Below the pieces are notes generated by a model. The model was not told the origin of the DNA and ran no database searches. It saw only the letters and a list, made by a program, of their open reading frames with translations. A stretch of 14,776 nucleotides of DNA from IMG/VR virus record IMGVR_UViG_3300042807_000125. One strand, 5' to 3'. The DNA is from a virus. Below, in pieces: positions 1-14,776 of this stretch (positions within the stretch are counted from its first letter, which is position 1; each line of letters starts with the position of its first letter). The position numbers and the translations under genes were made by a program.

Positions 1-104
1 AAAGAAAGCACCGACATGAACCCGACAACAAACAACACTCACACAAACCGAGGACAAGGCGCGCAAGCGCCGCGTCAGCGCAAGCGAAGCGCGCGAGCAT
101 GACA
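1..104. repeat. Left copy of an exact 104-bp direct terminal repeat (identical to 14673..14776)
   Basis: Base-by-base comparison shows nt 1-104 (aaagaaagcaccgacatgaacc...gcgcgagcatgaca) equal nt 14673-14776. The repeat runs to both window edges and includes the terminase ATG (99-101 = 14771-14773). Confidence 0.95.
16..102 (+). CDS. Candidate 28-aa Arg/Lys-rich leader ORF (MNPTTNNTHTNRGQGAQAPRQRKRSARA), stop overlapping the terminase start (ATGA)
   Basis: ATG at 16 lies 7 nt after the purine tract GAAAG (4-8). The TGA at 100-102 overlaps the terminase ATG at 99-101. It is below the ORF-track length cut-off, and the only evidence is its geometry. Confidence 0.2.
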   Translation: MNPTTNNTHTNRGQGAQAPRQRKRSARA

Positions 105-1832
105 CGCAAACTAACCGAACACGACACAGCGATCTACAAACAGGCACGTGCTGAACTACTGCGCGACCAACCATTGTGTCATTGGTGCAAACGCAACACA
201 GCAACAGAACTAGACCACCTAGTCGAATCGGACAAAGGCGGAACAATAGAAGACGGATACGTCGCAGCATGCAAACCATGCAACTCTGCGCGCGGAGCAA
301 CATACCGAAACAAAAAACTAGCCAACGCAAAACACGCAAGGGAAAAAGCAATAAACGATTTTTTATACAGCTCCGAGATGCCCCCGAGCCCCATCCATCA
401 TTTTGTCGCCACCAGCCCTGATCAGCCTAAACTGGCGCCAACTGGCCATGATCGGCCGAGACTGGAAACGATCATCCCAGACCATGCCGGCTCACTAGCT
501 GGACTTGTGGGGGACATGGCTAAGAAGGTGCTTCAGATTGATTTGATGCCTTGGCAAATACATGCTCTTGAGGGAATTCTGGCGGTTGACGCTGATCAAA
601 AGTTTGTGCATCGTTCGAGCCTTGTGTCGGTTGCGCGTCAGAACGGTAAGACAACAATTATTCAGGCGTTGATCTTGTTTTGGCTTGTGGAGATGCCAAA
701 GATTCGAGGCGGTAAGCAGACTGTTGTTTCGGGCGCGCACCGCTTGGATTTGGCTTGCTTGTTGTTTGATGATTTGGCACCAATCCTTGAGGAGTATTAC
801 GGAGCCAAGATCGTAAAGTCGTACGGCCGTTATCAGGCCACAATGCCAGACGGCAGCAAGTGGTGGGTAAAAGCATTAAAGCCAAACCAAGGTCACGGTA
901 TGAGCATTGACCTAGTGATCGTTGACGAACTTTTTGACGTCAACCCTGACTCTGTAGAAGGCGGTCTGTTGCCGGCACAGCGCGCACGTAAAAATCCCTT
1001 GGCGTGTTTCTTTAGCACGGCTGGCACGGAAGAATCGGTGCTGTTTCAGCGTTGGCGTGAGGCTGGCATTCGAGCAATTGACAAAGGTGAGCCGTCAACG
1101 ATGTATATGGCGGAATGGTCGCCTGACCCAAGTCTTGACCCGTTGCATCCAGCGTCATGGGCGTGGGGTAATCCTGCACTTGGCCACACGTTGGACATGG
1201 ACACCATCAGGCAAGAGTCCACCAACCCTGATCGTGCATCATTTTTGCGCGCATCCCTAAACCTTTGGGTAAGTGTTGTGCGCGGATGGATTGAGCCAGG
1301 TCGTTGGCCGTCATTGGAATACACAGGTGACATCCCTAGCGGTGGGGTCGTGGCGATCGAGTCTTCGCTGGACGATTCCCGATACAGCGCGACCAGATGC
1401 GTCAACCTGTCAGACGGTCGGGTGCTTGTCACCGTGGCATTTATTGCCGAGTCAATTACAGAGCTGTGGGAAAACGTGCATGAACTTGCCAAAGACCCGA
1501 CGATCAGGTTCGCCCTGTCGCCGACCGTGGACGCAACGTGCCCACCGAACATTGAGCGCCGCAGGGTCGTGGTCGGCTACGCCGAACTTGGACGGTTTAC
1601 ACCGCTAGCCAAAAACATGATCGCCGAAGCACGCTTACTGCACACAGGAGAAAAACTGTTAGCCGAACACGTTCAGCGCGCGGTTGCGGTACGCACGGAT
1701 AACACCATAGTTTTGTCCAGTAAGCGGAGTCCAGGGCCTATTGAATTAGCGCGAACAATGGTCTGGGGAATTGGCATGTGTGCCCGTCCAGTTAACAGCG
1801 GAAAGCCCATGCTTGTCGCGGTAAATAACTAA
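99..1832 (+). CDS. HNH endonuclease fused to large terminase subunit (577 aa)
   Basis: N-terminus has a Zn-finger HNH motif: C27-x2-C30, D39-H40, C58-x2-C61-N62 (nt about 177-296). From about residue 145 it shows Terminase_1-type TerL features: DLMPWQ, Walker A VARQNGKT (630-653), Walker B-like DLVIVDE, and a C-terminal RNaseH-like segment (VVAIESSLDDSRYSATRCV). The ORF is single and uninterrupted. Confidence 0.9.
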   Translation: MTRKLTEHDTAIYKQARAELLRDQPLCHWCKRNTATELDHLVESDKGGTIEDGYVAACKPCNSARGATYRNKKLANAKHAREKAINDFLYSSEMPPSPIHHFVATSPDQPKLAPTGHDRPRLETIIPDHAGSLAGLVGDMAKKVLQIDLMPWQIHALEGILAVDADQKFVHRSSLVSVARQNGKTTIIQALILFWLVEMPKIRGGKQTVVSGAHRLDLACLLFDDLAPILEEYYGAKIVKSYGRYQATMPDGSKWWVKALKPNQGHGMSIDLVIVDELFDVNPDSVEGGLLPAQRARKNPLACFFSTAGTEESVLFQRWREAGIRAIDKGEPSTMYMAEWSPDPSLDPLHPASWAWGNPALGHTLDMDTIRQESTNPDRASFLRASLNLWVSVVRGWIEPGRWPSLEYTGDIPSGGVVAIESSLDDSRYSATRCVNLSDGRVLVTVAFIAESITELWENVHELAKDPTIRFALSPTVDATCPPNIERRRVVVGYAELGRFTPLAKNMIAEARLLHTGEKLLAEHVQRAVAVRTDNTIVLSSKRSPGPIELARTMVWGIGMCARPVNSGKPMLVAVNN

Positions 1833-1917
1833 GATAAACGCGGCGACCGCGCACCTTGCCTTTTGTCGGAATCGGATAAGTCATGCGCGGTTGCCACTTG
1901 TATGACAAAGTAGGAAC

Positions 1918-3024
1918 ATGGCGATCTTTAACAAAACCAAAAAAGCAGCAATAAGCCCAGCGCCAAGCGTGGCAGCTGCGGTTGCTGGCGGTTACACAAG
2001 TAACGCTGCCGGCGTAAGCATGATCGGCCAGTACTACAGTTACCAAGAAGGCGAAGCACGCAACCGCGCAATTAGCGTTCCAACAATCAACCGCGCTCGA
2101 GATTTGATGGCATCAGTAATTGGTTCAATGCCATTGCGTATGTACAACGAAATGTGGAACGGCGACGAAATGGAAAAAGTGTACATTGCGCCACGTTCAT
2201 GGTTGCGCCGACCAGACCCAACCGTGCCATATCAGTTCATCATGTCTTGGACACTTGACGATCTCATGATGTTTGGTCGCGCATTCTGGTACATCACATC
2301 ACGCACCGCTGACGGTTACGCCGCGTCCTACACCCGTTTGCCTGCCGGCTCAATAACCACGACCGACATGGTTGGTCCCGTCTGGTTCGCACCATCCAAA
2401 GAAGTGTATTTCAACGGCGGAATGTTAGACCCAGCAAACCTTGTTCAATTTCTATCACCAGCGCAAGGCATGATCTACTCGGCACCAGGCGCAATAGAAA
2501 CCGCGCTAAAACTTGAAGCAGCACGCAACCGTAACGCATCGTCAAGCATCCCTGCCGGCGTACTAAAACAAACTGGTGGCGAACCATTAAGCGCGCAAGA
2601 GTTGGCTGATTTGGCTAGCGCGTTTAATGCCGCTCGAGCAACAAATCAAACTGCTGCGCTTAACGAGTATTTGACATACACGGAAACAAACAGCACGCCA
2701 GACAAGATGCTATTGATTGAAGCATCGCAATATCAGGCGCTTGAAATGTCACGCCTAGCAAATGTACCCCCATATTTGGTGGGCGTGGCAACTGGCGCAT
2801 ACTCGTACCAGTCAAGCCAACAGGCGCGTGCGGATCTGTACTTGTTTGGCGTGAAGTTGTATGCCGACGCAATTGCAAGCGCATTGTCAATGGACAACGT
2901 GCTACCGCGTGGCACTTATGTTGAGTTTGACGCTGACGAATACCTAGAAGAAAACTTTATGGCCGACCGCGCAGACGACGAAGTAATTGTTAGAGAAAAC
3001 ACACAAGAGGAGTTATCACGATGA
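1918..3024 (+). CDS. Portal protein, HK97-type (368 aa)
   Basis: It sits directly after the terminase. Portal-like blocks are present: WLRRPDP, MFGRAFWYI, IPAGVLK, LSAQELADL, and QALEMSRLANVPPYLVG (the typical eIa..fgVPp.llg block). Its stop overlaps the next start (ATGA at 3021). Confidence 0.88.
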   Translation: MAIFNKTKKAAISPAPSVAAAVAGGYTSNAAGVSMIGQYYSYQEGEARNRAISVPTINRARDLMASVIGSMPLRMYNEMWNGDEMEKVYIAPRSWLRRPDPTVPYQFIMSWTLDDLMMFGRAFWYITSRTADGYAASYTRLPAGSITTTDMVGPVWFAPSKEVYFNGGMLDPANLVQFLSPAQGMIYSAPGAIETALKLEAARNRNASSSIPAGVLKQTGGEPLSAQELADLASAFNAARATNQTAALNEYLTYTETNSTPDKMLLIEASQYQALEMSRLANVPPYLVGVATGAYSYQSSQQARADLYLFGVKLYADAIASALSMDNVLPRGTYVEFDADEYLEENFMADRADDEVIVRENTQEELSR

Positions 3025-4619
3025 TCAAACTAATTGCAGGAGAGTTCACGCTTGACGCTGCCAAAGGCGACGCACCACGACGCACCATAAGCGGAGTAGC
3101 CGTCCCATACAACGTGCCGGCAGTAGTCAGCGATGGCACAGCTGTGATCTTTCGTCCAGGCTCATTGCCAGTTGAAGGCAAAGCACCACGTCTATTTATG
3201 TACCACCAGGCTGATATGCCAGTCGGCGTTGTCACGGAACGTGCAGAAACCGAGCAAGGAATGTTGTTTAGCGCCAAAATCAGCGCAACCAGCCTCGGCA
3301 ACGACGCTCTTGTCATGGCCATGGATGGCACCATTGACCAAGTATCCGTTGGCGTAAATCCAACCAAGTTCTCGTACGACGAAGAAGGCACAATGGTCAT
3401 TGAGGCCGCCGACTGGATGGAATTGTCCCTAGTTCCGATCGGCGCTTTTGGCGATGCAGCAAACATCACCAAAGTCGCAGCGAGTATCCACCAAGAGCCC
3501 GAAGAAGTAGTGTTAAATGAAGAAGCAACCCCAGTAGAGGAGAAACAAGAAATGTCCGAAGTAAACGAAAACGCAGTCGAGGCAACCATCCCTACTGCAC
3601 CAGTATTTGCACAAGCAAAGCGCAAGTTTGATCTGCCAACCGCAGGCGAATACCTCGCAGCAATGCACATCGGCGGAGAAACATTCCGCAACGTTGCAGC
3701 AGCCGCACGCGAGTTTGCAATCTCAAAGCAAACGGCATTACAAGCAGCTGCAGGTGACGTGCTCACCACCGATACACCTGGTCTTTTGCCAGTACCAGTT
3801 CTTGGCCCAGTATTTGAGGACTTGAACTACATCCGTCCAGTAGTCGCAGCAGTAGGCGCTCGCGCAATGCCAGACGGTGGCAATCAAAAAACTTTTATCC
3901 GTCCAACGTGGACAACCCACACGTCGGTAGGCGCACAGTCACCTGAACTTTCAGGAGTATCAGCAACAACCCCAATTATTGCCTCGAACGTGTGCACAAA
4001 AACAACCCTAGCTGGGCAGGTCACCCTCTCAGTTCAGGATGTTGACTTCACGAGCCCCGCAGCAATGGAAATTATTTTGCGTGACCTTGCAGGACAGTAC
4101 ATGTTGCAAAGCGACAACGTGGCAGCAGACGCCATCGTCGCCGGTGCACAAGCATCGGGCGCAACTTGGACAGTCAACCAGACAGACCCATCATCGTTGA
4201 TCACCGCGCTTTACGGTGCAGCAGTCAACATTTTGACCGACACCAACTTCTTGCCTGATCACATTTTTGTGTCACCAAACGTTTGGGAATTGTTGGGTCG
4301 TCAGCTTGACGTGGACAAGCGTCCAGTATTCCCTTACACGGGCGCAGCAGGACTCATGGGCGTAAACGGCATGGGCACAGGCGGAGTTACACAAGCAAAC
4401 GTATTCAACCCATTCGGATTGAACCTCGTTGCAGACCGCAACTTTGCCAGCAACACCATGGTCGTTGCACGCGGAACCGCAATCGAGTTTTACGAGCAGG
4501 TACGAGGATTGATGTCAGTAGAAGCACCATCAACCCTTGGCCGCACATTCTCGTATTACGGATACGTGTCCACATTCATCGCTGACGCCGACCAGGTGCA
4601 GTCGATCGCTTTGGCTTAG
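3021..4619 (+). CDS. Prohead protease (S78/HK97 family) - linker/delta-like region - HK97-fold major capsid protein, one 532-aa ORF
   Basis: Residues about 20-150 match the S78 protease pattern (ISGVAVPYN, LFMYHQADMPVGV with His62, IDQVSVGV with Ser109, ELSLVPIGAFGDA). Residues about 150-250 form an acidic/helical linker. Residues about 250-532 match the HK97 capsid pattern (LLPVPVLGPVFEDL, LAGQVTLSVQDVDF, HIFVSPNVWELL, FGLNLVADRN). Confidence 0.9.
   Translation: MIKLIAGEFTLDAAKGDAPRRTISGVAVPYNVPAVVSDGTAVIFRPGSLPVEGKAPRLFMYHQADMPVGVVTERAETEQGMLFSAKISATSLGNDALVMAMDGTIDQVSVGVNPTKFSYDEEGTMVIEAADWMELSLVPIGAFGDAANITKVAASIHQEPEEVVLNEEATPVEEKQEMSEVNENAVEATIPTAPVFAQAKRKFDLPTAGEYLAAMHIGGETFRNVAAAAREFAISKQTALQAAAGDVLTTDTPGLLPVPVLGPVFEDLNYIRPVVAAVGARAMPDGGNQKTFIRPTWTTHTSVGAQSPELSGVSATTPIIASNVCTKTTLAGQVTLSVQDVDFTSPAAMEIILRDLAGQYMLQSDNVAADAIVAGAQASGATWTVNQTDPSSLITALYGAAVNILTDTNFLPDHIFVSPNVWELLGRQLDVDKRPVFPYTGAAGLMGVNGMGTGGVTQANVFNPFGLNLVADRNFASNTMVVARGTAIEFYEQVRGLMSVEAPSTLGRTFSYYGYVSTFIADADQVQSIALA
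3552..4619 (+). CDS. Candidate nested in-frame product: delta/scaffold-like region plus major capsid protein without the protease (355 aa)
   Basis: In-frame ATG (codon 178) at 3552 is preceded by GAGGAG (3537-3542) with 9-nt spacing. It falls at the protease/capsid domain boundary. Confidence 0.35.
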   Translation: MSEVNENAVEATIPTAPVFAQAKRKFDLPTAGEYLAAMHIGGETFRNVAAAAREFAISKQTALQAAAGDVLTTDTPGLLPVPVLGPVFEDLNYIRPVVAAVGARAMPDGGNQKTFIRPTWTTHTSVGAQSPELSGVSATTPIIASNVCTKTTLAGQVTLSVQDVDFTSPAAMEIILRDLAGQYMLQSDNVAADAIVAGAQASGATWTVNQTDPSSLITALYGAAVNILTDTNFLPDHIFVSPNVWELLGRQLDVDKRPVFPYTGAAGLMGVNGMGTGGVTQANVFNPFGLNLVADRNFASNTMVVARGTAIEFYEQVRGLMSVEAPSTLGRTFSYYGYVSTFIADADQVQSIALA

Positions 4620-4623
4620 TCAA

Positions 4624-4640
4624 GAGCGGGCTAACCGCTC
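4624..4640 (+). promoter_or_regulatory. Stem-loop GAGCGG-gctaa-CCGCTC between the capsid stop and the next ATG
   Basis: Perfect 6-bp stem (4624-4629 / 4635-4640) with a 5-nt loop. It starts 5 nt after the capsid TAG and ends at the base before ATG 4641. There is no U-tract, so it is not a classical intrinsic terminator. Confidence 0.4.
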
Positions 4641-5273
4641 ATGGCAACATACACAGTTACCAACAAGTACCTGATTGACAACTTTGCCGTACTGCAACTC
4701 CTGACCCCATCGGAGATTGCAGTCGGCAATTCAATCACGGTTGCTGGGGTTGATGCAACATTTAACGGTACCTACACGGTGCGCGCATTGCCACAGTATT
4801 TGTTTATTGGTATTGATACGCAAGGCGATCTGCTTTACGACTACCAGTTTCCTATTGCCGATCAGGTGTTGTATGCCAAAACCGCTAATGGCGTTGATCG
4901 AGTGGCGGCGTCTGGCACCGTGTCCTATGCGCCAGTTTGCACATGGGTAACGGCCTCGGATGTTATGATTTATCTTGGCATTACCATTGCTAACCCGTCA
5001 GACGATTACACGTTGCTCACGCAATCCGTGTCAGCAGGCAACCAGTTCTGTTATCGCAGGCGTCAGGAAAGCGGTTATATCGACTCCCTAACGACCTCGC
5101 CAGGCGGAGACGCAACATTAGGCACCTTGATGTATTGCGCCGCTCTATGGCGCTCTAGAGGGTCAATAGAGGCAACCTACGCCACGTTTGACGGCATGGG
5201 TTCGGCACCACAGCAAAGCCTGACCCCGATCGTCAAGCAGCTGCTTGGCATCCCACGTCCAGCGGTTGCCTAA
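4641..5273 (+). CDS. Head-tail adaptor/connector (gp6-like C-terminal half) with an extra ~100-aa N-terminal domain (210 aa)
   Basis: It sits directly after the capsid gene. The C-terminal half (WVTASDVMIYLGI...DDYTLLTQSVSAGNQFCYRRR) resembles the Phage_connect_1/gp6 pattern. The N-terminal half has no match I recognise. Confidence 0.5.
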   Translation: MATYTVTNKYLIDNFAVLQLLTPSEIAVGNSITVAGVDATFNGTYTVRALPQYLFIGIDTQGDLLYDYQFPIADQVLYAKTANGVDRVAASGTVSYAPVCTWVTASDVMIYLGITIANPSDDYTLLTQSVSAGNQFCYRRRQESGYIDSLTTSPGGDATLGTLMYCAALWRSRGSIEATYATFDGMGSAPQQSLTPIVKQLLGIPRPAVA

Positions 5274-5635
5274 TGGCTTACACCGACCTGTTCAACGAAG
5301 CAATTGATGACGTCACCGCAACGCTGACCGCTGTGTCTGGGCTCCGTGTTGTCAACGACCCAACAAAACTTGTGCCAAATTGCGTGTATTTGGATGCACC
5401 AAACTTCACAACAATTGCTGGCAACGGCAACGTGATACGCCTCGAGTTCCCTGTAAAGGTGATCGGGTCAGGCCCAGCAGGTCTGCCGGTACTGCGTCAA
5501 ATTTTAAGCATTGTGGCAAGCGTGCTTGGCTCGCCGATTATTGTTATGGCTGGCCGTCCGTCAAGCCTTGAGATTGGTGGCGCGCTATACCCGTGCTACG
5601 ACCTTGATTGCGCTATCCAAGCCCAGACTTCGTAA
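5273..5635 (+). CDS. Small head-tail joining / tail-terminator-like structural protein (120 aa), function uncertain
   Basis: TAATG overlap with the adaptor gene. Its size and its position between the adaptor and tail tube genes fit this role, but no diagnostic motif is present. Confidence 0.45.
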   Translation: MAYTDLFNEAIDDVTATLTAVSGLRVVNDPTKLVPNCVYLDAPNFTTIAGNGNVIRLEFPVKVIGSGPAGLPVLRQILSIVASVLGSPIIVMAGRPSSLEIGGALYPCYDLDCAIQAQTS

Positions 5636-5693
5636 TCCACTACGAGCGAACATAAATAATCTAATATCAGAACAGAACTAAGGAGCAACACAC

Positions 5694-6107
5694 ATGGCTA
5701 GCGCAACATACCTCTCGAATCCAGTCCTCACGATCAACAGCGTTGATTTGACCGACATGTGCACCGCAGCGACATTGACCTACCTGGTTGAAGCGCTCGA
5801 AGACACCGCATTTGGCACCAACTCACGCAGTTACACCGCAGGCCTTGCCAACAACGAAGTAACCTTGACGATGTACGCATCATTTGCTGCAACCGAAACT
5901 TACGCAACATTGCAGCCTTTGGTTGGCACCAAAACCAACATCACCTTGCAACCAGCATCAGGCAGCGAATCAGCAACCAACCCAAAGTTTGTTTTGACTG
6001 GTTGCTACCTTGAATCATTGCCAGTTATCAACGCATCCCTTGGCGAATTGTCAACCTATGACCTCACGTTCATGGGTGGCGCGTTGACGATTGACACCAC
6101 CGTATAA
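5694..6107 (+). CDS. Major tail (tube) protein (137 aa)
   Basis: It has the strongest SD in the window (AAGGAG 5680-5685, 8 nt before the ATG), after an AT-rich spacer. It lies directly upstream of the chaperone/frameshift pair and the tape measure. The protein is small and rich in beta-forming Thr/Ala residues. Confidence 0.6.
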   Translation: MASATYLSNPVLTINSVDLTDMCTAATLTYLVEALEDTAFGTNSRSYTAGLANNEVTLTMYASFAATETYATLQPLVGTKTNITLQPASGSESATNPKFVLTGCYLESLPVINASLGELSTYDLTFMGGALTIDTTV

Positions 6108-6137
6108 ACAACGGCTCCAAGCCGACATAGGAGAAAC

Positions 6138-6437
6138 ATGAAAATCAAGTTGGAATTAAAGCGCACGCCCGACAGCGCGCCCGAGTACTACTACACCAAC
6201 CTGTTTGTGGTTACCGAATGGGAACGGCTTGAGCGTCGCAACATTCAGCAACTATCAACGCAACCGCTTTACAGCGATTACTGCTGTTGGATGCACACGA
6301 TTTTAAAACTTAAAGGCGAGCAAGTTGGCGACAACTGGCGTGAATGGATTAGCAAGAACCCAGAGCTGGAGATCATTCCGGTATTGGACGAGACTGACCC
6401 AAACCCTACGGACGCGGCACCTACCGCCGCCAACTAG
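6138..6437 (+). CDS. Tail assembly chaperone, zero-frame product (G-like, 99 aa)
   Basis: SD AGGAG lies upstream. The gene sits between the tail tube and tape measure genes, has an acidic C-terminus, and contains a slippery heptamer near its 3' end. Confidence 0.7.
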   Translation: MKIKLELKRTPDSAPEYYYTNLFVVTEWERLERRNIQQLSTQPLYSDYCCWMHTILKLKGEQVGDNWREWISKNPELEIIPVLDETDPNPTDAAPTAAN

Positions 6438-6547
6438 CAGAAATACTGGTTGCGGTCGGTTGGTGGCCTAGCGACATTGTGTTTGACGCTCGAGACATAG
6501 CAACGGTCATTAAAGTGCTTAACGAGGCAAACAAAAAACGGAGATGA
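6138..6547 (+). CDS. Tail assembly chaperone, -1 frameshift product (GT-like; join 6138..6404, 6404..6547; ~136 aa)
   Basis: After the slip the -1 frame reads PYGRGTYRRQLAEILVAVGWWPSDIVFDARDIATVIKVLNEANKKRR and stops at TGA 6545-6547. It lies in the conserved position upstream of the tape measure. Confidence 0.6.
6398..6404 (+). promoter_or_regulatory. -1 programmed ribosomal frameshift site C_CCA_AAC
   Basis: A canonical X_XXY_YYZ heptamer in the chaperone zero frame (GAC CCA AAC). The -1 frame has a TGA at 6395-6397 and opens exactly at 6398. A GC stem (6414-6418 GCGGC / 6426-6430 GCCGC) lies 9 nt downstream. Confidence 0.65.
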
Positions 6548-6548
6548 C

Positions 6549-7061
6549 GTGGCGGTTGTATCGGCAAGGGTTGAGGTTGTAGGGCTCAAGGATGCTTTAA
6601 AGACCCTAAACAAGATTGATAAATCTTTGCGCCGAGAAATTACCAAGGATTACAAGCGCATTGTTCAGCCTGTTATTGACGACGCAAACAAGCTTGTGCC
6701 TACTGGCGTCCCGTTGTCTGGTATGGCGCGCAACTGGCAGACCAAGTCTGGGTTTCAGATTTTGCCGTGGATACCTGGCATGAAACAAAAAATTGCTGCC
6801 AAAATCAATACTCGAGCGATCAAAGAGTACGGCGGTAACACCACAAATGTGGGCACGTTTGCTATTCAATGGAAAGGCGCAACAGGCACGATGTTTGACA
6901 CGTCTATGGCTGGCTCGCTTGGCCGTGCGTTAACTGCACGCTATGGGAGTCGTTCGCGAGTAATGTGGAAAGCGTACGAGCAACGCCAAAGTGATGTCAT
7001 GTCCGAGATGGAACAATTGGTCAAGCGCGTCATGGAAGAAGCGAACAGAGAGACCGCGTAA
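6549..7061 (+). CDS. HK97-gp10-like tail-completion/head-tail joining family protein (170 aa), GTG start
   Basis: GGAG (6540-6543) lies 5 nt before the GTG. The N-terminus (VSARVEVVGLKDALKTLNKIDKSLRREITKDYKRIVQPVIDDANKLVP) fits the gp10-family pattern v.v.G...l...L........a..v...Ak...P. Confidence 0.5.
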   Translation: MAVVSARVEVVGLKDALKTLNKIDKSLRREITKDYKRIVQPVIDDANKLVPTGVPLSGMARNWQTKSGFQILPWIPGMKQKIAAKINTRAIKEYGGNTTNVGTFAIQWKGATGTMFDTSMAGSLGRALTARYGSRSRVMWKAYEQRQSDVMSEMEQLVKRVMEEANRETA

Positions 7062-8380
7062 TGGCAATTAATATCCCGATCATTTCAGAGTTTGACGGCA
7101 AAGGGATTAAGAAGGCTATTGCCCAATTTAAGCAACTGGAAACAACGTCAGAAAAAGCCCAGTTTGCTATCAAGAAAGCGGCGGTGCCGGCAGCTGCGGC
7201 GCTTGGCGGTTTGGCGTTGGCGCTTGGTGACGCAACCAAGGCTGCAATGGAAGATCAGCAGGAACAGGCGGCGTTAGCGCTTACTTTGCAGAATGTGACT
7301 GGCGCGGGAGCCGCGCAAACCGCACAGATTGAAGATCAGATCAGCGCAATGTCTCGAGCGTCTGGCATCGCTGACACCGAGTACCGCAAGAGCCTTGAGG
7401 CTTTGGTGCGCGGTACAAAAGATGTTGACCTTGCCATGAAAGACATGAATCTTGTCATGGACATCAGCACAGCGCTCCAGATGGACAGTTCCACCGTGGC
7501 CGACGCATTGGCCAAGGCATACCAGGGCAACTTTAAGGCGCTCCGATCATTGACTCCAGAAATGGCAACAATGATTAAAGAAGGCGCAAGCCTGAACGAA
7601 GTCATGGACGTGCTTGGCGGTACGTTCGGCGGAGCAACCGCAGTTGCAGCAGACACCGCTGCAGGAAAAATGAAAATCTTGTCTAACTCAATTGGCGAAA
7701 CAAAAGAGTCAATCGGTGCAGCGCTGTTGCCCGTGCTTGAAGCCGTTTTACCTGTGCTAAACAAATTTGCTGCATGGGCTCAAGACAACCCCAAAGCATT
7801 TCTTTTCATTGCTGGAGCAATTGGCGCAGTCGCCGCAGCAATTGTCGCCACTAACATTGCAATGGCACTCAACCCATTCAGCCTTATTGCAGCAGGCATC
7901 GCATTGCTAATTGTAGGTTTAGTTGCCGCATACAACAAGTTTGAGTGGTTTCGCGATGGAATTAACCTTATCGTTAACACCGTTATCGGGTTTTTTGCTG
8001 GCATGGTCAACGCTGCAATTGGCGCGGTCAACGCAATTATTAGCGCGTACAATTCAATACCGTTGTTGCCAGATATTCCAAAAGCCCCAACAATGCCAGT
8101 ACCACAGTTAGGTGCAACAGGCCCAGCAACACAAGTTCCGCGCAAGATTCCGCGCATGGCTGAAGGTGGCATCGTAGATCAGCCAGGTGGGATGCTTGCT
8201 GTGATTGGTGAAGCAGGCCCAGAAGCAGTCGTGCCATTAGACCGAATGCAAACAGGCGGCGGAATAACTATCAACGTCACAGGCGGACTTGCCACAAGTG
8301 CCGAAATCGGTGAATCGGTCGTTAACGCTTTGCGCGCCTATTCGCGTAGCGCTGGGCCGTTGCAGTTACAGGTGGCGTAA
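7061..8380 (+). CDS. Tape measure protein (439 aa)
   Basis: It follows the chaperone region. The N-terminal half is long, Ala/Leu-rich and helical. There is a central hydrophobic block (FLFIAGAIGAVAAAIVATNIAMALNPFSLIAAGIALLIVGLVAAY). TAATG overlaps occur at both ends. Confidence 0.85.
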   Translation: MAINIPIISEFDGKGIKKAIAQFKQLETTSEKAQFAIKKAAVPAAAALGGLALALGDATKAAMEDQQEQAALALTLQNVTGAGAAQTAQIEDQISAMSRASGIADTEYRKSLEALVRGTKDVDLAMKDMNLVMDISTALQMDSSTVADALAKAYQGNFKALRSLTPEMATMIKEGASLNEVMDVLGGTFGGATAVAADTAAGKMKILSNSIGETKESIGAALLPVLEAVLPVLNKFAAWAQDNPKAFLFIAGAIGAVAAAIVATNIAMALNPFSLIAAGIALLIVGLVAAYNKFEWFRDGINLIVNTVIGFFAGMVNAAIGAVNAIISAYNSIPLLPDIPKAPTMPVPQLGATGPATQVPRKIPRMAEGGIVDQPGGMLAVIGEAGPEAVVPLDRMQTGGGITINVTGGLATSAEIGESVVNALRAYSRSAGPLQLQVA

Positions 8381-9669
8381 TGCCAGGCACAGCCGTAGTC
8401 AATTCAGGCAACTATGACCTAAAGATCGCAACAGGTTTTCAAGTTGACGCGTTCGTGCTCGACGACTCATTAAAGGGCGTGCTTGACAATACGACCTATG
8501 TGCTGGACGGCACAACCGAGTTTTCCGATGTCATGGACTCAACTATCAGCATCAATGTGCGCCGCGGTCGCCGTGACGTGGGCGATCAGTTCAGCGCCGG
8601 CACAATGACATTTACCATTCAGGACGTGGACGGGATATTTAACCCGTTTGACCAGAACAGCCCGTTTTACGACACTCCGCAATCTAAGCCTGGGCTTGCC
8701 CCATTGCGCGCAGTACAGCTCATCCGTTACAGCAACACCAATGTGCCCGAATCATTGTTCAGCGGTTATGTCGTCAATTATGATTACAACTTTGCGCTTG
8801 GCGGTCTAGACACCGTTACCGTGTATTGCGCTGACCAGTTTTATCTATTGGCACAAACCTACTTAGACGAATTAAACGTCACTACGGAAACATCAGGAGA
8901 ACGCATAGAAACAGTCCTAGATCTACCAGAAGTTGACTTTCCTGCAGGCGCTCGAAGCATCGCTACAGGCACCGTCAACCTAGGCCACGACAGCCCTTAT
9001 ACCGTGCCGGCAGGAACAAATGCGCTGCAATACCTAACCCAGATCAACGAAACCGCCGAGTTTGGGCGTTTGTTTATGTCAAGGGCTGGGGTGCTTACAT
9101 TCCAAAATCGCATCGGTACAACTTTAAGCGCGCCTATGGCAGAGTTTAAAGATGACGGCACAGGGTACAAGTTTGATGGCGTAGGCATCTCATTTGAAGC
9201 GGATTCGGTAATCAACAGATCAGTTGTTACAGGCTTAGACGGGGACAGTTACACAGCAACGGACGCTGGCTCAATCGCCACATATTTTATACAAACCTCA
9301 AGCATCACTAACAGCCTGTTGCATGAAGCTGCGCAAATACAAGCAGCTGCCGAATACTTGCTAAACCCAGAGCCCGAACCGCGCTATACGTCCGTGGCAA
9401 CCAAATACCTAATGCTGACCACAGCCCAAAAAGACACCTTGGCAACTGTTGATATTGGTGACACAATCAGCGTAGAAAAGACGTTTGCTAGCGGTACTGG
9501 CACAAGCCAGTTGGCTCAAGAGCTGTCAGTTGAGGGCATAGAGCATCGTCTGGATTTCAGCACAGGCCACAGCGTGCTGTACTCAACCGCGCCAACCACG
9601 ATCGTCTATGAACTCATCTTGGATGACGCGGTGTATGGCACACTCGACGCAGAGAATGTTTTAGGATAA
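8380..9669 (+). CDS. Distal-tail (Dit)-like minor tail protein with C-terminal extension (429 aa)
   Basis: It lies immediately after the tape measure. The N-terminal pattern ISINVRRGRRDVGDQFSAGTMTFTIQDVDGIFNP...LRAVQL...LFSGYV...VTVYCADQFYLL matches the motif common in the first minor tail protein of actinobacteriophages. Confidence 0.6.
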   Translation: MPGTAVVNSGNYDLKIATGFQVDAFVLDDSLKGVLDNTTYVLDGTTEFSDVMDSTISINVRRGRRDVGDQFSAGTMTFTIQDVDGIFNPFDQNSPFYDTPQSKPGLAPLRAVQLIRYSNTNVPESLFSGYVVNYDYNFALGGLDTVTVYCADQFYLLAQTYLDELNVTTETSGERIETVLDLPEVDFPAGARSIATGTVNLGHDSPYTVPAGTNALQYLTQINETAEFGRLFMSRAGVLTFQNRIGTTLSAPMAEFKDDGTGYKFDGVGISFEADSVINRSVVTGLDGDSYTATDAGSIATYFIQTSSITNSLLHEAAQIQAAAEYLLNPEPEPRYTSVATKYLMLTTAQKDTLATVDIGDTISVEKTFASGTGTSQLAQELSVEGIEHRLDFSTGHSVLYSTAPTTIVYELILDDAVYGTLDAENVLG

Positions 9670-9678
9670 GGAGCACTT

Positions 9679-10062
9679 ATGGCAACTAGGCAAAGTTTCA
9701 CCGCTGGACAGGTACTAACCGCCGCGCAACAAAACGCTTTGGCTACCGCGCAAATTGCGTTGAACGCACAAACAGGCACGTCGTACACCGCTGTGCTCGC
9801 AGACGACGGCGATCTCGTAACGCTTGACAATGGTTCAGCAATTACTTTTACAATTCCACCATCCAGCAGCGTTAACTTTGGTATCGGCACCCAGATCAAC
9901 ATCATGCAACTAGGCGCAGGTCAGGTCACAATTACGCCTGGCGCTGGCGTCACAATCCGATCGGCCAACTCACGACTCAAAACCACAGCACAGTATTCTG
10001 TTGCAACTTGCGTAAAAATCGCAACGGACACTTGGGTCGCTGTCGGCAGTCTCAGCGCATAA
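9679..10062 (+). CDS. Small minor tail / fibre-like protein (127 aa)
   Basis: SD AAGGAG lies upstream. The N-terminus (SFTAGQVLTAAQQNALA) resembles the conserved N-terminal motif of many phage tail-fibre proteins. It sits within the tail-tip block. Confidence 0.45.
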   Translation: MATRQSFTAGQVLTAAQQNALATAQIALNAQTGTSYTAVLADDGDLVTLDNGSAITFTIPPSSSVNFGIGTQINIMQLGAGQVTITPGAGVTIRSANSRLKTTAQYSVATCVKIATDTWVAVGSLSA

Positions 10063-13007: not shown

Positions 13008-13406
13008 ATGAAAACCTGCACAATTTGCAAAGGCTCAATTGCCTACCCAGAGATCACAGGCAAAACACATTTCGTTTGTGACGGCCGTGTACCGGCAAGA
13101 AAACATGCGCCATTTATCCAAGGAATGTTGGCGTCACAATCGTCTGCTGATGCGCGTTGGACACGCGATGAACAAAACAAAGTTGATGCAGCGATCTTGC
13201 ACGTTGCGCGCACAAAAGGGTTCTTCACATCGGACGACATTTGGCAACACCTGGGCGACCAGTTTCCCGTCACCAAAGGCATCGCTGGACGGTTGAACGC
13301 AGCTGCGCGTCGTGGCATTATCCGTAACACGGGCGAACTGGCATACGCACAGCGCGGTGGCGCACATGACCATGCACAACGTTTAAGCGTCTGGGCAGGC
13401 ATCTAA
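13008..13406 (+). CDS. Putative Zn-ribbon plus winged-helix-like DNA-binding protein (132 aa)
   Basis: SD GGGAG lies upstream. The N-terminus has C4-x2-C7...H21-x2-C24. The C-terminal half (FFTSDDIWQHLG...GIAGRLNAAARRGIIRNTGE...RLSVW) looks like a wHTH. The function is inferred only. Confidence 0.4.
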   Translation: MKTCTICKGSIAYPEITGKTHFVCDGRVPARKHAPFIQGMLASQSSADARWTRDEQNKVDAAILHVARTKGFFTSDDIWQHLGDQFPVTKGIAGRLNAAARRGIIRNTGELAYAQRGGAHDHAQRLSVWAGI

Positions 13407-13951
13407 TGGGCTTTGATCTAAGCAACTACGAAACAGTCGAATCGCGTCTAGTCCGCTGGTGGGCTGCATACCCGAACGGGCGCGTGTACACAATGATGAT
13501 GAACTACACAGGCGACGCTTGCGTGTTCTATTGCGAACTATACGCCGACAAAGAAGACAAGGTGCCAGTCGCTACAGGCTACGCAGAAGAAATCAAAAGC
13601 GACCGCGGTGTCAATGCCACATCGTTTGTAGAGAACTGTGAAACGAGCGCGATCGGTCGCGCGATCGCTAATTGCCCTTTACAGGCGCCTGCTAGTGGCC
13701 CTAGACCGTCACGCAATGAGATGCAAAAGGTTGAGCGTTTAACAACTCCACCGCAACCGCAACCGCACACACCCTCTGGCGCGTTTGCCACGCCTAAGCA
13801 GATCGGCTACATCAAGAAACTGGCTAAAGATGCCGGCATGGACGATCTTCGACTGTTGGAGTTAATCCAGCGCGAACTGAACAGCGATGAAGCGGTGTTA
13901 GAGCTGTTGAAATCACATGAAGCAAGCAGAATCATTGAGGTACTGAAATGA
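13406..13951 (+). CDS. Possible Rad52/Sak-like single-strand annealing or ssDNA-binding protein with a PQ-rich linker and helical C-terminal tail (181 aa)
   Basis: The core pattern YETVESRLVRWW...ATGYAEE...ENCETSAIGRAIAN resembles the beta-beta-beta-alpha core and the (K/E)xAxS/TxAxxRA helix of Rad52-superfamily SSAPs. The call is tentative. Confidence 0.3.
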   Translation: MGFDLSNYETVESRLVRWWAAYPNGRVYTMMMNYTGDACVFYCELYADKEDKVPVATGYAEEIKSDRGVNATSFVENCETSAIGRAIANCPLQAPASGPRPSRNEMQKVERLTTPPQPQPHTPSGAFATPKQIGYIKKLAKDAGMDDLRLLELIQRELNSDEAVLELLKSHEASRIIEVLK

Positions 13952-14094
13952 CGTTAGAAGAACTGATCACAAACATTGAGCGCTTACAGAGCGTGTACAA
14001 CAGCATGGTTGACCCTGAACAGCACGAAGCAAGGCAATACGTGCGTTGGGCAATCAAGCACCTTGCAGACAAGACGTACATGGCTGCGCTGTAA
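13948..14094 (+). CDS. Hypothetical 48-aa helical protein
   Basis: It is not in the ORF track. There is an ATGA overlap upstream and a TAATG overlap downstream. Its sequence is MTLEELITNIERLQSVYNSMVDPEQHEARQYVRWAIKHLADKTYMAAL. Confidence 0.45.
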   Translation: MTLEELITNIERLQSVYNSMVDPEQHEARQYVRWAIKHLADKTYMAAL

Positions 14095-14438
14095 TGAAAC
14101 TTGACCCGAAGATCAGCGAAACCGACTTCAAGGATGTCGTCATTAGCATCGCCAAACGTTACGGCTGGCTAATTCACCATGACTTGCCGGCACAAAACAG
14201 TCGAGGGCGTTGGGCAACGCATGTGCAGGGTGATGTGGGGTTTCCTGATCTGTTTATGGTGCACCCATTCCAAGGCGGTCGGCCGTTAGTCATTGAGTTA
14301 AAAGCAGAGAAGGGCAAGACGACACCTGGGCAGAAGGTTTGGTTAAAGGCGTGTGAGTTGGCTGGATGTCATGCAGCGGTTTGGAAGCCAAGTGACATGG
14401 AGTACATTCTCTACACCTTGAGCAATCCAAGAATGTAA
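14094..14438 (+). CDS. VRR-NUC domain nuclease (114 aa)
   Basis: PD-(D/E)xK signature: GFPDLFMV ... LVIELK, followed by TPGQKVWL. I prefer ATG 14094 (TAATG overlap) to the track's TTG at 14046. Confidence 0.85.
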   Translation: MKLDPKISETDFKDVVISIAKRYGWLIHHDLPAQNSRGRWATHVQGDVGFPDLFMVHPFQGGRPLVIELKAEKGKTTPGQKVWLKACELAGCHAAVWKPSDMEYILYTLSNPRM

Positions 14439-14451
14439 ACAATCGGCTAGT
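14435..14451. repeat. Box A copy 1: GTAAAC-AATCGGCTAGT
   Basis: The 11-mer AATCGGCTAGT (14441-14451) recurs exactly at 14576-14586. The GTAAAC prefix also recurs (14568-14573), with a 2-nt insertion in copy 2. Confidence 0.8.
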
Positions 14452-14474
14452 AGCAAGCACCTATCAGAGTCGCG

Positions 14475-14489
14475 TCTGGTCGGGTAGAG
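14475..14489. repeat. Box B copy 1: TCTGGTCGGGTAGAG
   Basis: It recurs at 14614-14627 as TCTGGT-GGGTGGAG (one indel, one mismatch). Each box B lies about 40-46 bp after a box A, so the A...B unit appears duplicated. Confidence 0.65.
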
Positions 14490-14509
14490 GTCGCGGTAAC
14501 GCGGGTAGA
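14481..14509. repeat. Three helically phased short boxes: CGGGTAGA (14481), CGCGGTAA (14492), CGGGTAGA (14502)
   Basis: The exact 8-mer CGGGTAGA occurs twice, 21 bp apart, with a related box midway (about 10.5-bp phasing). The palindrome GGCGCGCC follows at 14512-14519. Confidence 0.6.
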
Positions 14510-14567
14510 TCGGCGCGCCCCAAATCATGCAAGACGAAATGAAACGGGCAAAGCGTCGAGGCGAGCC

Positions 14568-14586
14568 GTAAACATAATCGGCTAGT
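14568..14586. repeat. Box A copy 2: GTAAAC-at-AATCGGCTAGT
   Basis: See copy 1. The two 11-mers are 135 bp apart. Confidence 0.8.
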
Positions 14587-14613
14587 GAGTGCAAAGGGAA
14601 CCAGGTTGGGCAA

Positions 14614-14627
14614 TCTGGTGGGTGGAG
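14614..14627. repeat. Box B copy 2: TCTGGTGGGTGGAG
   Basis: See copy 1. Confidence 0.65.
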
Positions 14628-14672
14628 CATTCACACATCTCTTGACCTGCAGATGACATACAGTTAACAAAC

Positions 14673-14776
14673 AAAGAAAGCACCGACATGAACCCGACAA
14701 CAAACAACACTCACACAAACCGAGGACAAGGCGCGCAAGCGCCGCGTCAGCGCAAGCGAAGCGCGCGAGCATGACA
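14673..14776. repeat. Right copy of the exact 104-bp direct terminal repeat
   Basis: It is identical to 1-104 and ends with atgaca, which is the start of a second copy of the terminase ORF. Confidence 0.95.

What the first reader, a model, noticed from the sequence alone, without database searches (positions are those of the whole stretch)
99..1832. HNH endonuclease covalently fused to the large terminase, with no recognisable small terminase
Seen in sequence: one uninterrupted 577-aa ORF carries a full Zn-finger HNH motif (residues 27-62) and then a Terminase_1-type TerL (from about residue 145). In the circular map the gene upstream is VRR-NUC followed by about 330 bp of non-coding DNA, so the usual TerS position is empty. 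Base composition changes near nt 400, the domain junction. My spot counts of T per 60 nt are 10 at 121-180 versus 18 at 541-600 and 19 at 661-720, which hints that the two modules have different histories. Established knowledge: in HK97-like cos phages a separate HNH protein (HK97 gp74) next to the terminase genes is required for terminase-mediated cos cleavage. Inference: a physical fusion would hard-wire that partnership and might make up for a missing TerS or a weakened TerL nuclease. The first acidic position of the RNaseH-like block reads AIESS where related terminases usually have Asp.
Basis: partly seen in the sequence, partly recalled or inferred. Interest (0 to 1): 0.65.

Follow-up and report, generated by a model that had tools for sequence, protein, structure and literature searches.

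The report
HNH nuclease fused to large terminase
A very abundant, tiny (14.7 kb) freshwater tailed phage makes its DNA-packaging motor and the helper HNH nuclease, which related phages encode as a separate gene, as one protein; the fusion is real, old and conserved, and no small terminase subunit can be recognised.

Summary
ORF 99-1832 is one 577-aa protein: a Zn-finger HNH nuclease (res 8-66), a basic helix (59-89), a disordered linker (91-116) and an HK97-type large terminase (from about 120).

It is not an assembly error. All 66 full-length IMG/VR relatives keep the ORF open. dN/dS is 0.10 (HNH), 0.27 (linker) and 0.04-0.05 (TerL). Fused homologues reach down to about 26% identity. Every "short" relative with full upstream context proved to be a mis-called start.

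The HNH domain hits the same PHROG families as HK97 gp74. The TerL part is closest to HK97 TerL (6Z6D). Cultured small-genome actinophages (clusters AN, EE) keep a separate HNH as their last gene.

- The A-rich, T-poor composition is real but conserved in relatives, and the two modules co-diverged (Mantel r 0.58). It is not a sign of different histories.
- E421 replaces the first catalytic Asp, but it is invariant nearby and alternates with Asp further out. That does not indicate a weakened nuclease.

No TerS was found with Pfam, PHROGs or NCBIfam, so a divergent one is not excluded. I read this as a Rosetta-stone variant of the known HNH-assisted cos terminase. I found no paper describing it.

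The parts
99..1832 (+). HNH-TerL fusion gene, 577 aa, one uninterrupted ORF
   Evidence: Intact in 66 of 66 full-length IMG/VR loci. Under purifying selection along its whole length.
120..296 (+). HNH beta-beta-alpha metal-finger domain (res 8-66). Zn ligands are C27, C30, C58 and C61. D39-H40 holds the catalytic His. N62 is the metal ligand. Gly53 sits where most relatives have the central Asn.
   Evidence: AF2 pLDDT is 72-90 across the domain.
273..365 (+). Long basic alpha-helix (res 59-89, sequence RGATYRNKKLANAKHAREKAINDF) that extends from the HNH finger
   Evidence: AF2 secondary structure. R65, G66 and R81 are conserved.
369..446 (+). Disordered linker (res 91-116), variable in length among relatives
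   Evidence: pLDDT below 50. Indel-rich columns in alignment A2. dN/dS 0.27, so still coding.
456..1298 (+). TerL ATPase domain (res ~120-400). Q-motif W152-Q153. Walker A is A179-R-Q-N-G-K184-T. Walker B is D276-E277. The S306-T-A-G-T motif follows.
   Evidence: HK97 equivalents are Q33, K60, D153/E154 and T186 (PMC9410871).
1299..1829 (+). TerL RNase H-like nuclease domain (res ~401-577). E421 aligns with HK97 D302 and E549 with D471. The second acid is unresolved: E496 is invariant, and D478 is mostly D or E.
   Evidence: Pfam TerL_nuclease at 26.8 bits, above the cutoff of 24. Alignments.
14439..14770 (.). 332-bp non-coding region upstream of the fusion gene. Blocks at 14497-14545, 14547-14575 and 14607-14640 are largely >=95% conserved across 54 sequence variants. 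It contains the only G/C run of 9 or more bases (CGGCGCGCCCC, 14511-14521), which is a candidate cos or terminase-recognition region (inference).
   Evidence: for conservation; the 28-aa ORF here is not conserved in frame. G/C-rich right ends of phages Yank and Stem for comparison. No Rfam hit and no fold signal.
14094..14438 (+). VRR-NUC nuclease gene, the last gene before the non-coding region. It is absent from several relatives.
   Evidence: Its presence or absence in relatives is shown.
13406..13951 (+). 181-aa protein of unknown function (phrog_11717; precomputed PF27148). It is the most conserved non-structural gene, and in relatives that lack VRR-NUC it is the last or second-to-last gene before the fusion gene. 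It is not recognisable as TerS.
   Evidence: The AF2 model is unusable (pLDDT 45).
1918..3024 (+). Portal protein
   Evidence: Pfam Phage_portal at 1e-25.
3021..4619 (+). Prohead protease and major capsid fusion protein (HK97-type module)
   Evidence: Peptidase_S78 and phrog_2263 at 4.5e-95.
14673..14776 (.). Exact copy of 1-104: the assembly overlap of a circular or concatemeric contig, not a biological repeat

Best explanation
ORF 99-1832 encodes a single-chain packaging enzyme. A gp74-type HNH nuclease is tethered by a basic helix and a roughly 25-residue flexible linker to the N-terminus of an HK97-type large terminase, which carries an ATPase motor and an RNase H-like nuclease.

Shown:
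- The two modules are translated as one protein.
- Both keep their catalytic and metal-binding residues.
- Both are under strong purifying selection.
- The architecture is fixed in a large, old clade of ~14-16 kb freshwater siphophages.

Inferred, by analogy with HK97 and the staphylococcal cos phages, where a separate HNH protein binds TerL and is needed for cos cleavage:
- The tethered HNH acts together with the TerL nuclease to cut concatemeric DNA at a cos site. That site most probably lies in the conserved 332-bp non-coding region just upstream.
- The ATPase then pumps the genome into the HK97-like prohead.
- Fusion guarantees 1:1 stoichiometry and co-localisation, and it saves a gene start in a minimal genome.

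In the closest cultured analogues (Arthrobacter cluster AN, Microbacterium cluster EE) the HNH gene is the last gene and TerL lies near the left end. In the concatemer the two are therefore neighbours across cos. Bringing them together on one side of cos would create this gene.
For: One gene:
- 66 of 66 full-length relatives have an open ORF.
- dN/dS is 0.10 (HNH), 0.27 (linker), 0.05 (ATPase) and 0.04 (nuclease) over 58 unique CDS.
- No indel in 300-520 in contigs from 4 runs.
- 102 of 120 close homologues and 31 of 149 cluster representatives at the 50% identity level are fused as called.
- Every 'short' homologue with full upstream context is a mis-called start: L002 is 584 aa and L102 is 599 aa.

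HNH of the packaging type:
- Its top PHROGs (589, 144, 2323) are all among HK97 gp74's top four hits (2323, 5956, 589, 144).
- C27, C30, D39, H40, C58, C61 and N62 are invariant in the 34 closest homologues.
- It is the only HNH motif in the genome.

TerL of the HK97 type:
- 6Z6D at 6.5e-25 by profile and hhalign probability 98.7.
- Foldseek top hit at 2e-22.
- Walker A and B, the Q-motif and the acidic residues are conserved.

Architecture: AF2 pLDDT is 84, with two folded modules joined by a disordered stretch at 91-116.

Co-evolution of the modules: Mantel r 0.58, with 0 of 5000 permutations reaching it.

Context:
- The portal and the protease-capsid fusion follow directly.
- Cultured small-genome actinophages have a separate terminal HNH (PMC5679792, PMC7302621).
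- The role of gp74 in cos cleavage is described in PMC13595911 and PMC9410871.
Against: - There is no biochemical or end-mapping data, so cos packaging and the position of cos are inferences.
- In the window's own subclade the central Asn of the H-N-H motif is Gly53. The Pfam HNH scores are below gathering. Full HNH activity is therefore not certain.
- In three relatives (L071, L082, L083) a Dam-like methylase gene abuts the fusion gene with no gap. In those phages cos is not directly upstream.
- The second catalytic acid of the TerL nuclease could not be assigned.
- The host is unknown.
Confidence: 0.72

Rival explanations
1. Assembly or sequencing artefact: two adjacent genes (HNH and TerL) were merged by a missed frameshift or stop in the linker region.
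For: A few singleton database proteins (P0199, P0229, P0260, P0253) carry the HNH part followed by an out-of-frame tail. Each has one member on one contig.
Against: The ORF is open in 66 of 66 independent IMG/VR contigs and in every complete distant relative examined. The linker is under purifying selection in this frame, with dN/dS 0.27. No indel was seen in contigs from four runs, one of them at a depth of thousands. Intact clusters hold hundreds of member sequences.
Confidence: 0.02
2. The HNH module is a selfish homing endonuclease that landed at the 5' end of TerL and plays no part in packaging.
For: HNH homing endonucleases are common in phages and often sit next to or inside terminase genes (general knowledge; PMC10448857). 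The local base composition is atypical.
Against: The module is present in every clade member with full upstream context, down to 26-37% identity, rather than sporadically. It co-diverges with TerL. Its dN/dS is 0.10. It resembles gp74-type packaging HNHs. No other HNH in the genome could serve the HK97-type terminase. The composition signature is conserved, not a fresh scar.
Confidence: 0.06
3. The HNH fold has become a non-catalytic DNA-binding or protein-docking module, for example a cos-recognition domain, and TerL alone does the cutting.
For: The central Asn is lost (Gly53) in the window's subclade. Pfam scores are below threshold. A long basic helix follows the finger. No TerS is recognisable.
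Against: The catalytic His40, the preceding Asp39, the metal ligand N62 and all four Zn cysteines are invariant in the 34 closest homologues. H-N-N type fingers of this pattern are active nucleases in solved relatives, such as the 4H9D-like proteins and the Cas9 and IscB HNH domains that the profile hits.
Confidence: 0.12
4. A conventional but highly divergent TerS is encoded elsewhere (candidates: the 181-aa, 132-aa or 92-aa right-arm proteins). The system would then be an ordinary three-component HK97-like terminase in which only the HNH-TerL linkage differs.
For: TerS families are very divergent and often go unannotated in actinophages; clusters AN and EE are annotated only with 'terminase'. 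The 181-aa protein is conserved in every complete relative and lies last or nearly last before the fusion gene.
Against: No TerS family was hit in Pfam (E up to 5), PHROGs (E up to 1) or NCBIfam. There is no similarity to HK97 TerS (hhalign probability 0.1). Two members of the 181-aa family lean weakly towards RecT-like annealing proteins instead.
Confidence: 0.45

Closest known systems
HK97 terminase with its accessory HNH protein gp74 (Kala et al. 2014; HK97 TerL structure 6Z6D, PMC9410871)
   Same: The TerL is HK97-type by sequence profile and by fold. The HNH is from the same PHROG neighbourhood as gp74. An HK97-like portal, protease and capsid module lies next to it. The HNH and terminase genes are neighbours.
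   Different: Here the HNH is covalently joined to the TerL N-terminus, whereas in HK97 it is a separate gene on the far side of cos. No TerS equivalent of gp1 is recognisable. The metal ligand is Asn62 where gp74 has its essential His. TerL has Q181 where HK97 has its critical second lysine K57, and Glu at two of the three HK97 catalytic Asp positions that could be aligned.
Small-genome siphoviruses of Actinobacteria (Arthrobacter clusters AN, AX and FE; Microbacterium cluster EE; Gordonia clusters CW and DM; Rhodococcus RRH1; PMC7302621, PMC5679792)
   Same: A 14-17 kb genome with the same gene order, a protease-capsid fusion, no replication genes, no annotated TerS, and TerL 24-30% identical.
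   Different: Those phages keep a stand-alone HNH of 88-99 aa as the last gene at the right end, and they have 1-3 small genes between the left end and TerL. The window phage has none of these. It is an uncultured freshwater lineage with about 52% GC.
Unannotated fused proteins already in UniProt/BFVD from 'uncultured Caudovirales phage' (A0A6J5T5X6, 578 aa; A0A6J5RK67, 602 aa; A0A6J5QUV0, 586 aa)
   Same: The match runs over the full length, including the N-terminal HNH (576-625 aligned columns, 20-36% identity, E 1e-61 to 7e-39).
   Different: They are named only 'Terminase large subunit' or 'HNHc domain containing protein'. I found no description of the fusion in the literature searched.
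HNH domains attached to other packaging-associated proteins, such as Lactobacillus phage Lrm1 gp54 (HNH plus a Walker-A domain, annotated TerS; PMC3592412) and PHROG 4581 'terminase small subunit', which gp74 also hits
   Same: They show that packaging HNH modules do get fused to other proteins of the packaging region.
   Different: The partner there is not the TerL motor. Lrm1 gp54 lacks Walker B, and separate TerS and TerL genes exist.

Membership tests
HK97-type large terminase (Pfam TerL_ATPase and TerL_nuclease; COG4626) | ASCE ATPase with Walker A (GKT/S), Walker B (hhhhDE) and an adenine-binding Q-motif | tested here: met
   A-R-Q-N-G-K184-T, D276-E277 and W152-Q153 are invariant across 30 sequences down to 26% identity. 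They align with HK97 K60, D153/E154 and Q33.
HK97-type large terminase (Pfam TerL_ATPase and TerL_nuclease; COG4626) | C-terminal RNase H-like nuclease with three catalytic acidic residues | tested here: inconclusive
   Pfam TerL_nuclease is above gathering. E421 aligns with D302 and E549 with D471. The partner of D388 is not resolved (E496 is invariant; D478 is mostly D or E). E549 is not invariant in the wider family.
HK97-type large terminase (Pfam TerL_ATPase and TerL_nuclease; COG4626) | Overall fold like solved TerL structures | tested here: met
   The AF2 model has pLDDT 84. The Foldseek top hit is 6z6d at E 2e-22, followed by T4 gp17, D6E, Sf6 and P74-26 TerL.
HK97-type large terminase (Pfam TerL_ATPase and TerL_nuclease; COG4626) | ATP-driven DNA translocation and DNA cleavage activity | not testable with these tools
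   Needs biochemistry.
HNH (beta-beta-alpha metal finger) endonuclease | Catalytic His on the first strand (the D/N-H dyad) and a metal-binding His or Asn at the start of the helix | tested here: met
   D39-H40 and N62 are invariant in the 34 closest homologues. H40 is invariant in all 30 diverse sequences.
HNH (beta-beta-alpha metal finger) endonuclease | Structural zinc site [CxxC]x2 | tested here: met
   C27, C30 and C61 are invariant, and C58 is conserved in at least 90% of sequences.
HNH (beta-beta-alpha metal finger) endonuclease | Central Asn of the H-N-H motif | tested here: not met
   The window and its closest subclade read D-G53-Y-V-A-A-C where most relatives have D-N-L-V-P-x-C. The residue is structural, not catalytic.
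HNH (beta-beta-alpha metal finger) endonuclease | Score above the Pfam gathering threshold | tested here: not met
   HNH_5 scores 21.2 bits against 27.5, and HNH scores 16.2 against 21.4. PHROG HNH families match at 1.6e-11, the family profile hits PDB HNH 4H9D at 4e-9, and many relatives carry precomputed PF01844 and PF14279.
gp74-type packaging HNH system (HNH plus HK97-like terminase and morphogenesis module) | HNH gene next to the terminase genes, together with HK97-type portal, protease and capsid genes | tested here: met
   The HNH is fused in cis to TerL. The portal and the S78 protease-capsid fusion follow directly.
gp74-type packaging HNH system (HNH plus HK97-like terminase and morphogenesis module) | HNH sequence related to gp74 | tested here: met
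   The window HNH hits phrog_589 (1.6e-11), phrog_144 and phrog_2323. HK97 gp74 hits phrog_2323 (4e-46), phrog_589 (6e-24) and phrog_144 (1e-18).
gp74-type packaging HNH system (HNH plus HK97-like terminase and morphogenesis module) | Separate TerS subunit that recognises cos | tested here: not met
   No TerS family is hit by any ORF in Pfam, PHROGs or NCBIfam, even at lax E-values. There is no coding ORF between the non-coding region and the fusion gene. A divergent TerS is not excluded.
gp74-type packaging HNH system (HNH plus HK97-like terminase and morphogenesis module) | Cohesive (cos) genome ends, and HNH-stimulated cos cleavage | not testable with these tools
   Only assembled contigs were available, not raw virion reads. 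The candidate site at 14511-14521 is an inference.
Small-genome actinophage architecture (clusters AN, EE and similar) | Genome of about 14-17 kb with a protease-capsid fusion and a compact structural module | tested here: met
   The unit is 14,672 bp. The fusion protein at 3021-4619 is supported. Gene order matches phages Yank and Stem.
Small-genome actinophage architecture (clusters AN, EE and similar) | Stand-alone HNH as the last gene; actinobacterial host | tested here: not met
   The HNH is fused here rather than stand-alone. The host is undetermined: the only genome hits are mis-binned MAG contigs from seven different taxa.
HNH homing endonuclease | Sporadic presence or absence among close relatives, with evolution independent of the host gene | tested here: not met
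   The module is present in all relatives with full upstream context. It co-diverges with TerL.

The most novel reading that the evidence does not exclude
The fused HNH finger plus its basic helix has taken over site recognition. This lineage would then package DNA with a single-polypeptide terminase holoenzyme that handles recognition, both strand cuts and translocation, with no small terminase at all. That would be the most compact cos-type packaging machine known in a tailed phage.
Probability: 0.15. Interest if true: 0.75.

Novelty: new variant of a known kind. Interest (0 to 1): 0.45.

Why it matters
The physical and functional partnership between HK97-type terminases and their HNH helper was worked out genetically and biochemically for separate proteins. 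A natural, ancient and strictly conserved covalent fusion is independent evolutionary (Rosetta-stone) evidence that the two act as one unit at a 1:1 ratio.

It also offers a convenient single-chain object for structural work on two open points: how the two nucleases divide the two strand cuts at cos, and where the HNH docks on TerL.

The lineage is extremely abundant in lakes (word depth in the thousands in one run; more than 300 IMG/VR contigs). It has one of the smallest tailed-phage genomes and no recognisable TerS, which makes it a good system for asking what the minimal packaging machinery is.

There is a practical point too. Gene callers often start this gene at an internal Met, so public annotations list 440-510 aa 'terminase' proteins and miss the HNH domain.

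Tried and rejected
- Near-identity DNA search of GenBank phages found nothing. tblastn with the N-terminal 161 aa against phages also found nothing.
- I looked for split relatives. Every 'short' TerL I could place in full context was a mis-called start (L002, L102). The rest were cut by a contig end with the frame still open (L084, L085, L100, L101).
- The frameshifted HNH-only proteins are singletons.
- The 28-aa ORF that overlaps the ATG (14689-14775) is rejected as a gene, because its frame is broken in many close relatives.
- TerS hunt on the 181-aa protein: the AF2 model is unusable (pLDDT 45) because the alignment is shallow (87-97% identity). A profile search of the PDB found nothing. 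hhalign against HK97 TerS gave probability 0.1. I ran no further search on that model.
- Host identification through GTDB genomes returned only mis-binned MAG contigs from seven different taxa. The 26-kb contig is a concatemer, not a prophage.
- The search for related loci with the diverse alignment A2 failed because it has no conserved stretch.
- The window has no Rfam match, and the intergenic region does not fold better than shuffled sequence (z -0.73). No sigma-70 promoter or terminator consensus was found there.
- RNA runs hold too little of the sequence and are available only as contigs. DNA runs are also contigs only, so read-level ends could not be mapped.
- Literature searches for an HNH-TerL fusion found nothing. 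Kala et al. 2014 (PMC4000778) is not held in the library.
- The hhalign placement of HK97 D388 onto E486 is rejected, because that column is not conserved.
Full report
**What the window is.** The 14,776-bp window starts and ends with the same 104 bases (1-104 = 14673-14776). It is therefore a circularly assembled unit of 14,672 bp. All long ORFs lie on the + strand and follow the usual order of a small siphovirus:
- HNH-TerL (99-1832)
- portal (1918-3024)
- prohead protease fused to the major capsid protein (3021-4619)
- connector and tail genes, a tape measure protein and a glycine-rich fibre
- lysis genes (a weak, sub-threshold M15-like peptidase match, an SLT lysozyme)
- five small right-arm genes, ending with a VRR-NUC nuclease (14094-14438)

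No GenBank phage is close at the DNA level. The sequence is common in freshwater, lake, subsurface and drinking-water metagenomes. IMG/VR holds 305 related stretches, and one lake run covers it at a word depth in the thousands.

**Check of the observation.** ORF 99-1832 is a single 577-aa frame.
- Residues 27-62 carry C27-x2-C30, D39-H40 and C58-x2-C61-N62.
- Pfam HNH_5 and HNH match residues 27-70 but below gathering. PHROG HNH families match at 1.6e-11. The family profile hits the solved HNH 4H9D at 4e-9.
- The remainder matches PHROG 9 TerL at 2.6e-50 and Pfam TerL_nuclease above threshold. It matches the HK97 TerL structure 6Z6D at 1.2e-10 with the single sequence, at 6.5e-25 with the profile, and at hhalign probability 98.7.
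- An AlphaFold model built on 34 homologues has mean pLDDT 84. It shows a folded HNH finger, a long helix (59-89), a disordered stretch (91-116) and then TerL. Its best structural match in the PDB is HK97 TerL at E 2e-22.
- TerL homology begins near residue 120, with the invariant P120-R121 followed by the Q-motif W152-Q153.
- The gap between the VRR-NUC stop and the ATG is 332 bp.
- The T counts are 10, 18 and 18.
- E421 in AIESS aligns with HK97 catalytic D302 (PMC9410871).

**One gene or two?**
- All 66 IMG/VR loci that cover the full gene (82-100% amino-acid identity) have an ATG, no internal stop, and 577-589 codons.
- Over 58 unique coding sequences, dN/dS is 0.10 in the HNH part, 0.27 in the linker, 0.05 in the ATPase and 0.04 in the nuclease. 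The N-terminal third is therefore read in this frame and is constrained.
- Contigs from four runs show no indel between 300 and 520.
- Among the 120 best database homologues (48-97% identity), 102 are fused as called.
- The shorter ones are artefacts. P0094 (511 aa) lies inside a 584-aa ORF with a complete HNH (L002). P0162 (518 aa) lies inside a 599-aa ORF (L102). Others are cut by a contig end with the frame still open.
- JGI calls of 440-482 aa, named 'terminase large subunit-like protein', share a 90% cluster with the 576-aa form.
- A few HNH-only proteins with out-of-frame tails are singletons on single contigs.

The frameshift explanation is effectively excluded.

**How far the fusion reaches.** In a library clustered at 50% identity, 31 of the best 149 representatives are fused as called, down to 26-32% identity (P0193, P0268). 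BFVD holds three full-length fused matches from 'uncultured Caudovirales phage'. They are named only 'Terminase large subunit' or 'HNHc domain containing protein'. I did not find a relative with full upstream context and at least 37% identity that is split.

The nearest clearly unfused terminases are those of cultured actinophages (24-30% identity). Arthrobacter phage Yank (cluster AN) and Microbacterium phage Stem (cluster EE) share the tiny genome, the gene order and the capsid-protease fusion. Both keep a separate HNH of 88-99 aa as the very last gene, and both are annotated with a 'terminase' and no TerS (PMC5679792, PMC7302621). In a concatemer that HNH lies just upstream of the terminase region, across cos. 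Bringing the two onto one side of cos gives the gene seen here.

[quoted passage not shown] It is the only HNH motif in the genome. The Zn cysteines, D39-H40 and N62 are invariant in the 34 closest homologues. One deviation stands out. The central Asn, found in most relatives as D-N-L-V-P-x-C, is Gly53 in the window's subclade. N62 in place of a final His is the H-N-N pattern also seen in 4H9D and in the Cas9 and IscB HNH domains that the profile hits.

**The TerL part.** The following are invariant:
- Walker A (A-R-Q-N-G-K184-T)
- Walker B (D276-E277)
- S-T-A-G-T
- the Q-motif

Q181 sits where HK97 has its unusual critical K57 (PMC9410871).

In the nuclease domain, E421 aligns with D302 and E549 with D471. 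I could not place D388. hhalign puts it on E486, a non-conserved column, while E496 is invariant and D478 is mostly acidic.

E421 is invariant in the 34 closest sequences, and the position alternates between Asp and Glu across the wider fused family (for example AVDSS, AIDSS and ACDVS). That is a conservative, selected substitution. It is not a sign of decay.

**The composition shift.** It is real. The first ~400 nt, together with the upstream non-coding DNA, have the highest AT skew in the genome (0.5-0.6 against a mean of 0.11, sd 0.115). T makes up 12.6% of the HNH part and 23.7% of TerL. The difference holds at third codon positions, where A3+C3 is 0.69 against 0.45.

The same pattern appears in relatives at 57-87% TerL identity (L001, L002, L079, L082). 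It also appears, more weakly, in the stand-alone HNH genes of Yank and Stem. The pairwise identities of the HNH and TerL parts across 30 diverse fused proteins are correlated (Mantel r 0.58; 0 of 5000 permutations reached it), and their means are similar (0.43 and 0.40). The two modules have therefore travelled together for a long time. The skew is a maintained local property whose cause I cannot name. It may also be why gene callers skip this region.

**Small terminase.** No ORF hits a TerS family in Pfam (E up to 5), PHROGs (E up to 1) or NCBIfam. The 28-aa ORF that overlaps the ATG is not conserved in frame.

The most conserved non-structural gene is the 181-aa protein at 13406-13951. It is present in every complete relative, and where VRR-NUC is absent it is the last or second-to-last gene before the fusion. 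Its function is unknown (phrog_11717). Two family members lean weakly towards RecT-like proteins. It has no PDB relative and no similarity to HK97 TerS, and my AF2 model of it failed. A divergent TerS is therefore not excluded.

**The upstream non-coding region.** Across 54 sequence variants, blocks at 14497-14545, 14547-14575 and 14607-14640 are largely at least 95% conserved. That is tighter than synonymous sites in the neighbouring gene (pS 0.3-0.47). The only long G/C run (CGGCGCGCCCC, 14511-14521) lies in the first block. It recalls the G/C-rich right ends of Yank and Stem (...CCCCGCGCCACC and ...CCCCGCCCCA). I propose this region as the cos and terminase-recognition site, but that is inference only. 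In three relatives a Dam-like methylase gene abuts the fusion gene instead, so the layout is not universal.

**Verdict.** The finding is a genuine, conserved HNH-TerL fusion. It is best read as a cis-linked version of the known HNH-assisted HK97-type cos terminase, in a lineage of minimal freshwater siphophages. Fused sequences already sit in public databases, unremarked and often mis-started. I found no paper that describes the architecture. It is a new variant of a known kind and of moderate interest. The open and more interesting question is whether a TerS exists at all.

Noticed in passing
window 1-104 and 14673-14776: There is an exact 104-bp terminal direct repeat. The window is a circular assembly with an overlap, so the true unit is 14,672 bp and the start codon of the fusion gene appears twice (at 99 and at 14771).
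   Followed up: yes
window 3021-4619: The prohead protease (Peptidase_S78) is fused to the major capsid protein in one 532-aa ORF. This is the hallmark of small-genome actinophages (clusters AN, EE, CW and others) and is a second gene fusion in the same packaging and head module.
   Followed up: partly
L002 9782-11536; L102 5897-7696; the 90% cluster of P0023: Public gene calls often start this gene at an internal Met. They give 440-518 aa 'terminase' proteins that lack the HNH domain. The atypical A/C-rich codon usage of the first ~300 nt may be the cause.
   Followed up: yes
window 1-400 and 14439-14770: The strand is strongly asymmetric here: the + strand is about 60% purine with 13% T, and AT skew is 0.4-0.6. 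The asymmetry spans the non-coding region and the HNH coding part, includes synonymous sites, and is conserved in relatives. Its cause is unexplained.
   Followed up: partly
L071, L082, L083 (directly upstream of the fusion gene): In these relatives (82-91% TerL identity) a Dam-like N6-adenine methyltransferase gene (DDYYTP...NPPF) ends in an ATGA overlap with the HNH-TerL start. It takes the place of the non-coding DNA next to the fusion gene.
   Followed up: no
window 14497-14640: These non-coding blocks are conserved more tightly than synonymous sites of the neighbouring gene. They include the G/C run CGGCGCGCCCC (14511-14521), a direct repeat AATCGGCTAGT at 14441 and 14576, and CGGGTAGA repeated at 14481 and 14502.
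   Followed up: partly
window 630-653 (Walker A): The Walker A region reads A-R-Q-N-G-K-T. Gln181 sits where HK97 TerL has K57, a second lysine reported as essential and proposed to define a subfamily. Q181 is invariant in all 30 diverse fused homologues.
   Followed up: no
L088 (26,422-bp contig), also L062, L066, L077, L079: Contigs of 26-30 kb are head-to-tail concatemers of the ~15-kb genome, not prophages. No integrated copy was found in 185,579 reference genomes.
   Followed up: partly
L103 and L104 (P0207, an unfused 478-aa TerL at 32% identity): Contigs from two different samples start at the same base, 30 nt upstream of the TerL start. This looks like a physical genome end, as expected where TerL sits at the left cos end.
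   Followed up: no
window 13406-13951: This 181-aa protein has an N-terminal domain with an E-T-S-A-I-G-R-A motif, a Pro/Gln-rich linker and a C-terminal helical A-T-P-K-Q-x-G domain (weak GemA and RecT-like hints). It is the only non-structural protein conserved across the whole clade, in a genome with no recognisable replication gene.
   Followed up: partly
window 10067-10924: This 285-aa glycine-rich protein (Pfam Gly_rich_2, 1.5e-16) lies in the tail-fibre region. On the opposite strand there are long proline-rich pseudo-ORFs, which are an artefact of the GGN repeats.
   Followed up: no
lake-water run X25 laid on window 1-2000: Word depth is 1,000-13,000 with many co-existing variants, so this phage lineage is among the dominant sequences in that lake sample.
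   Followed up: no
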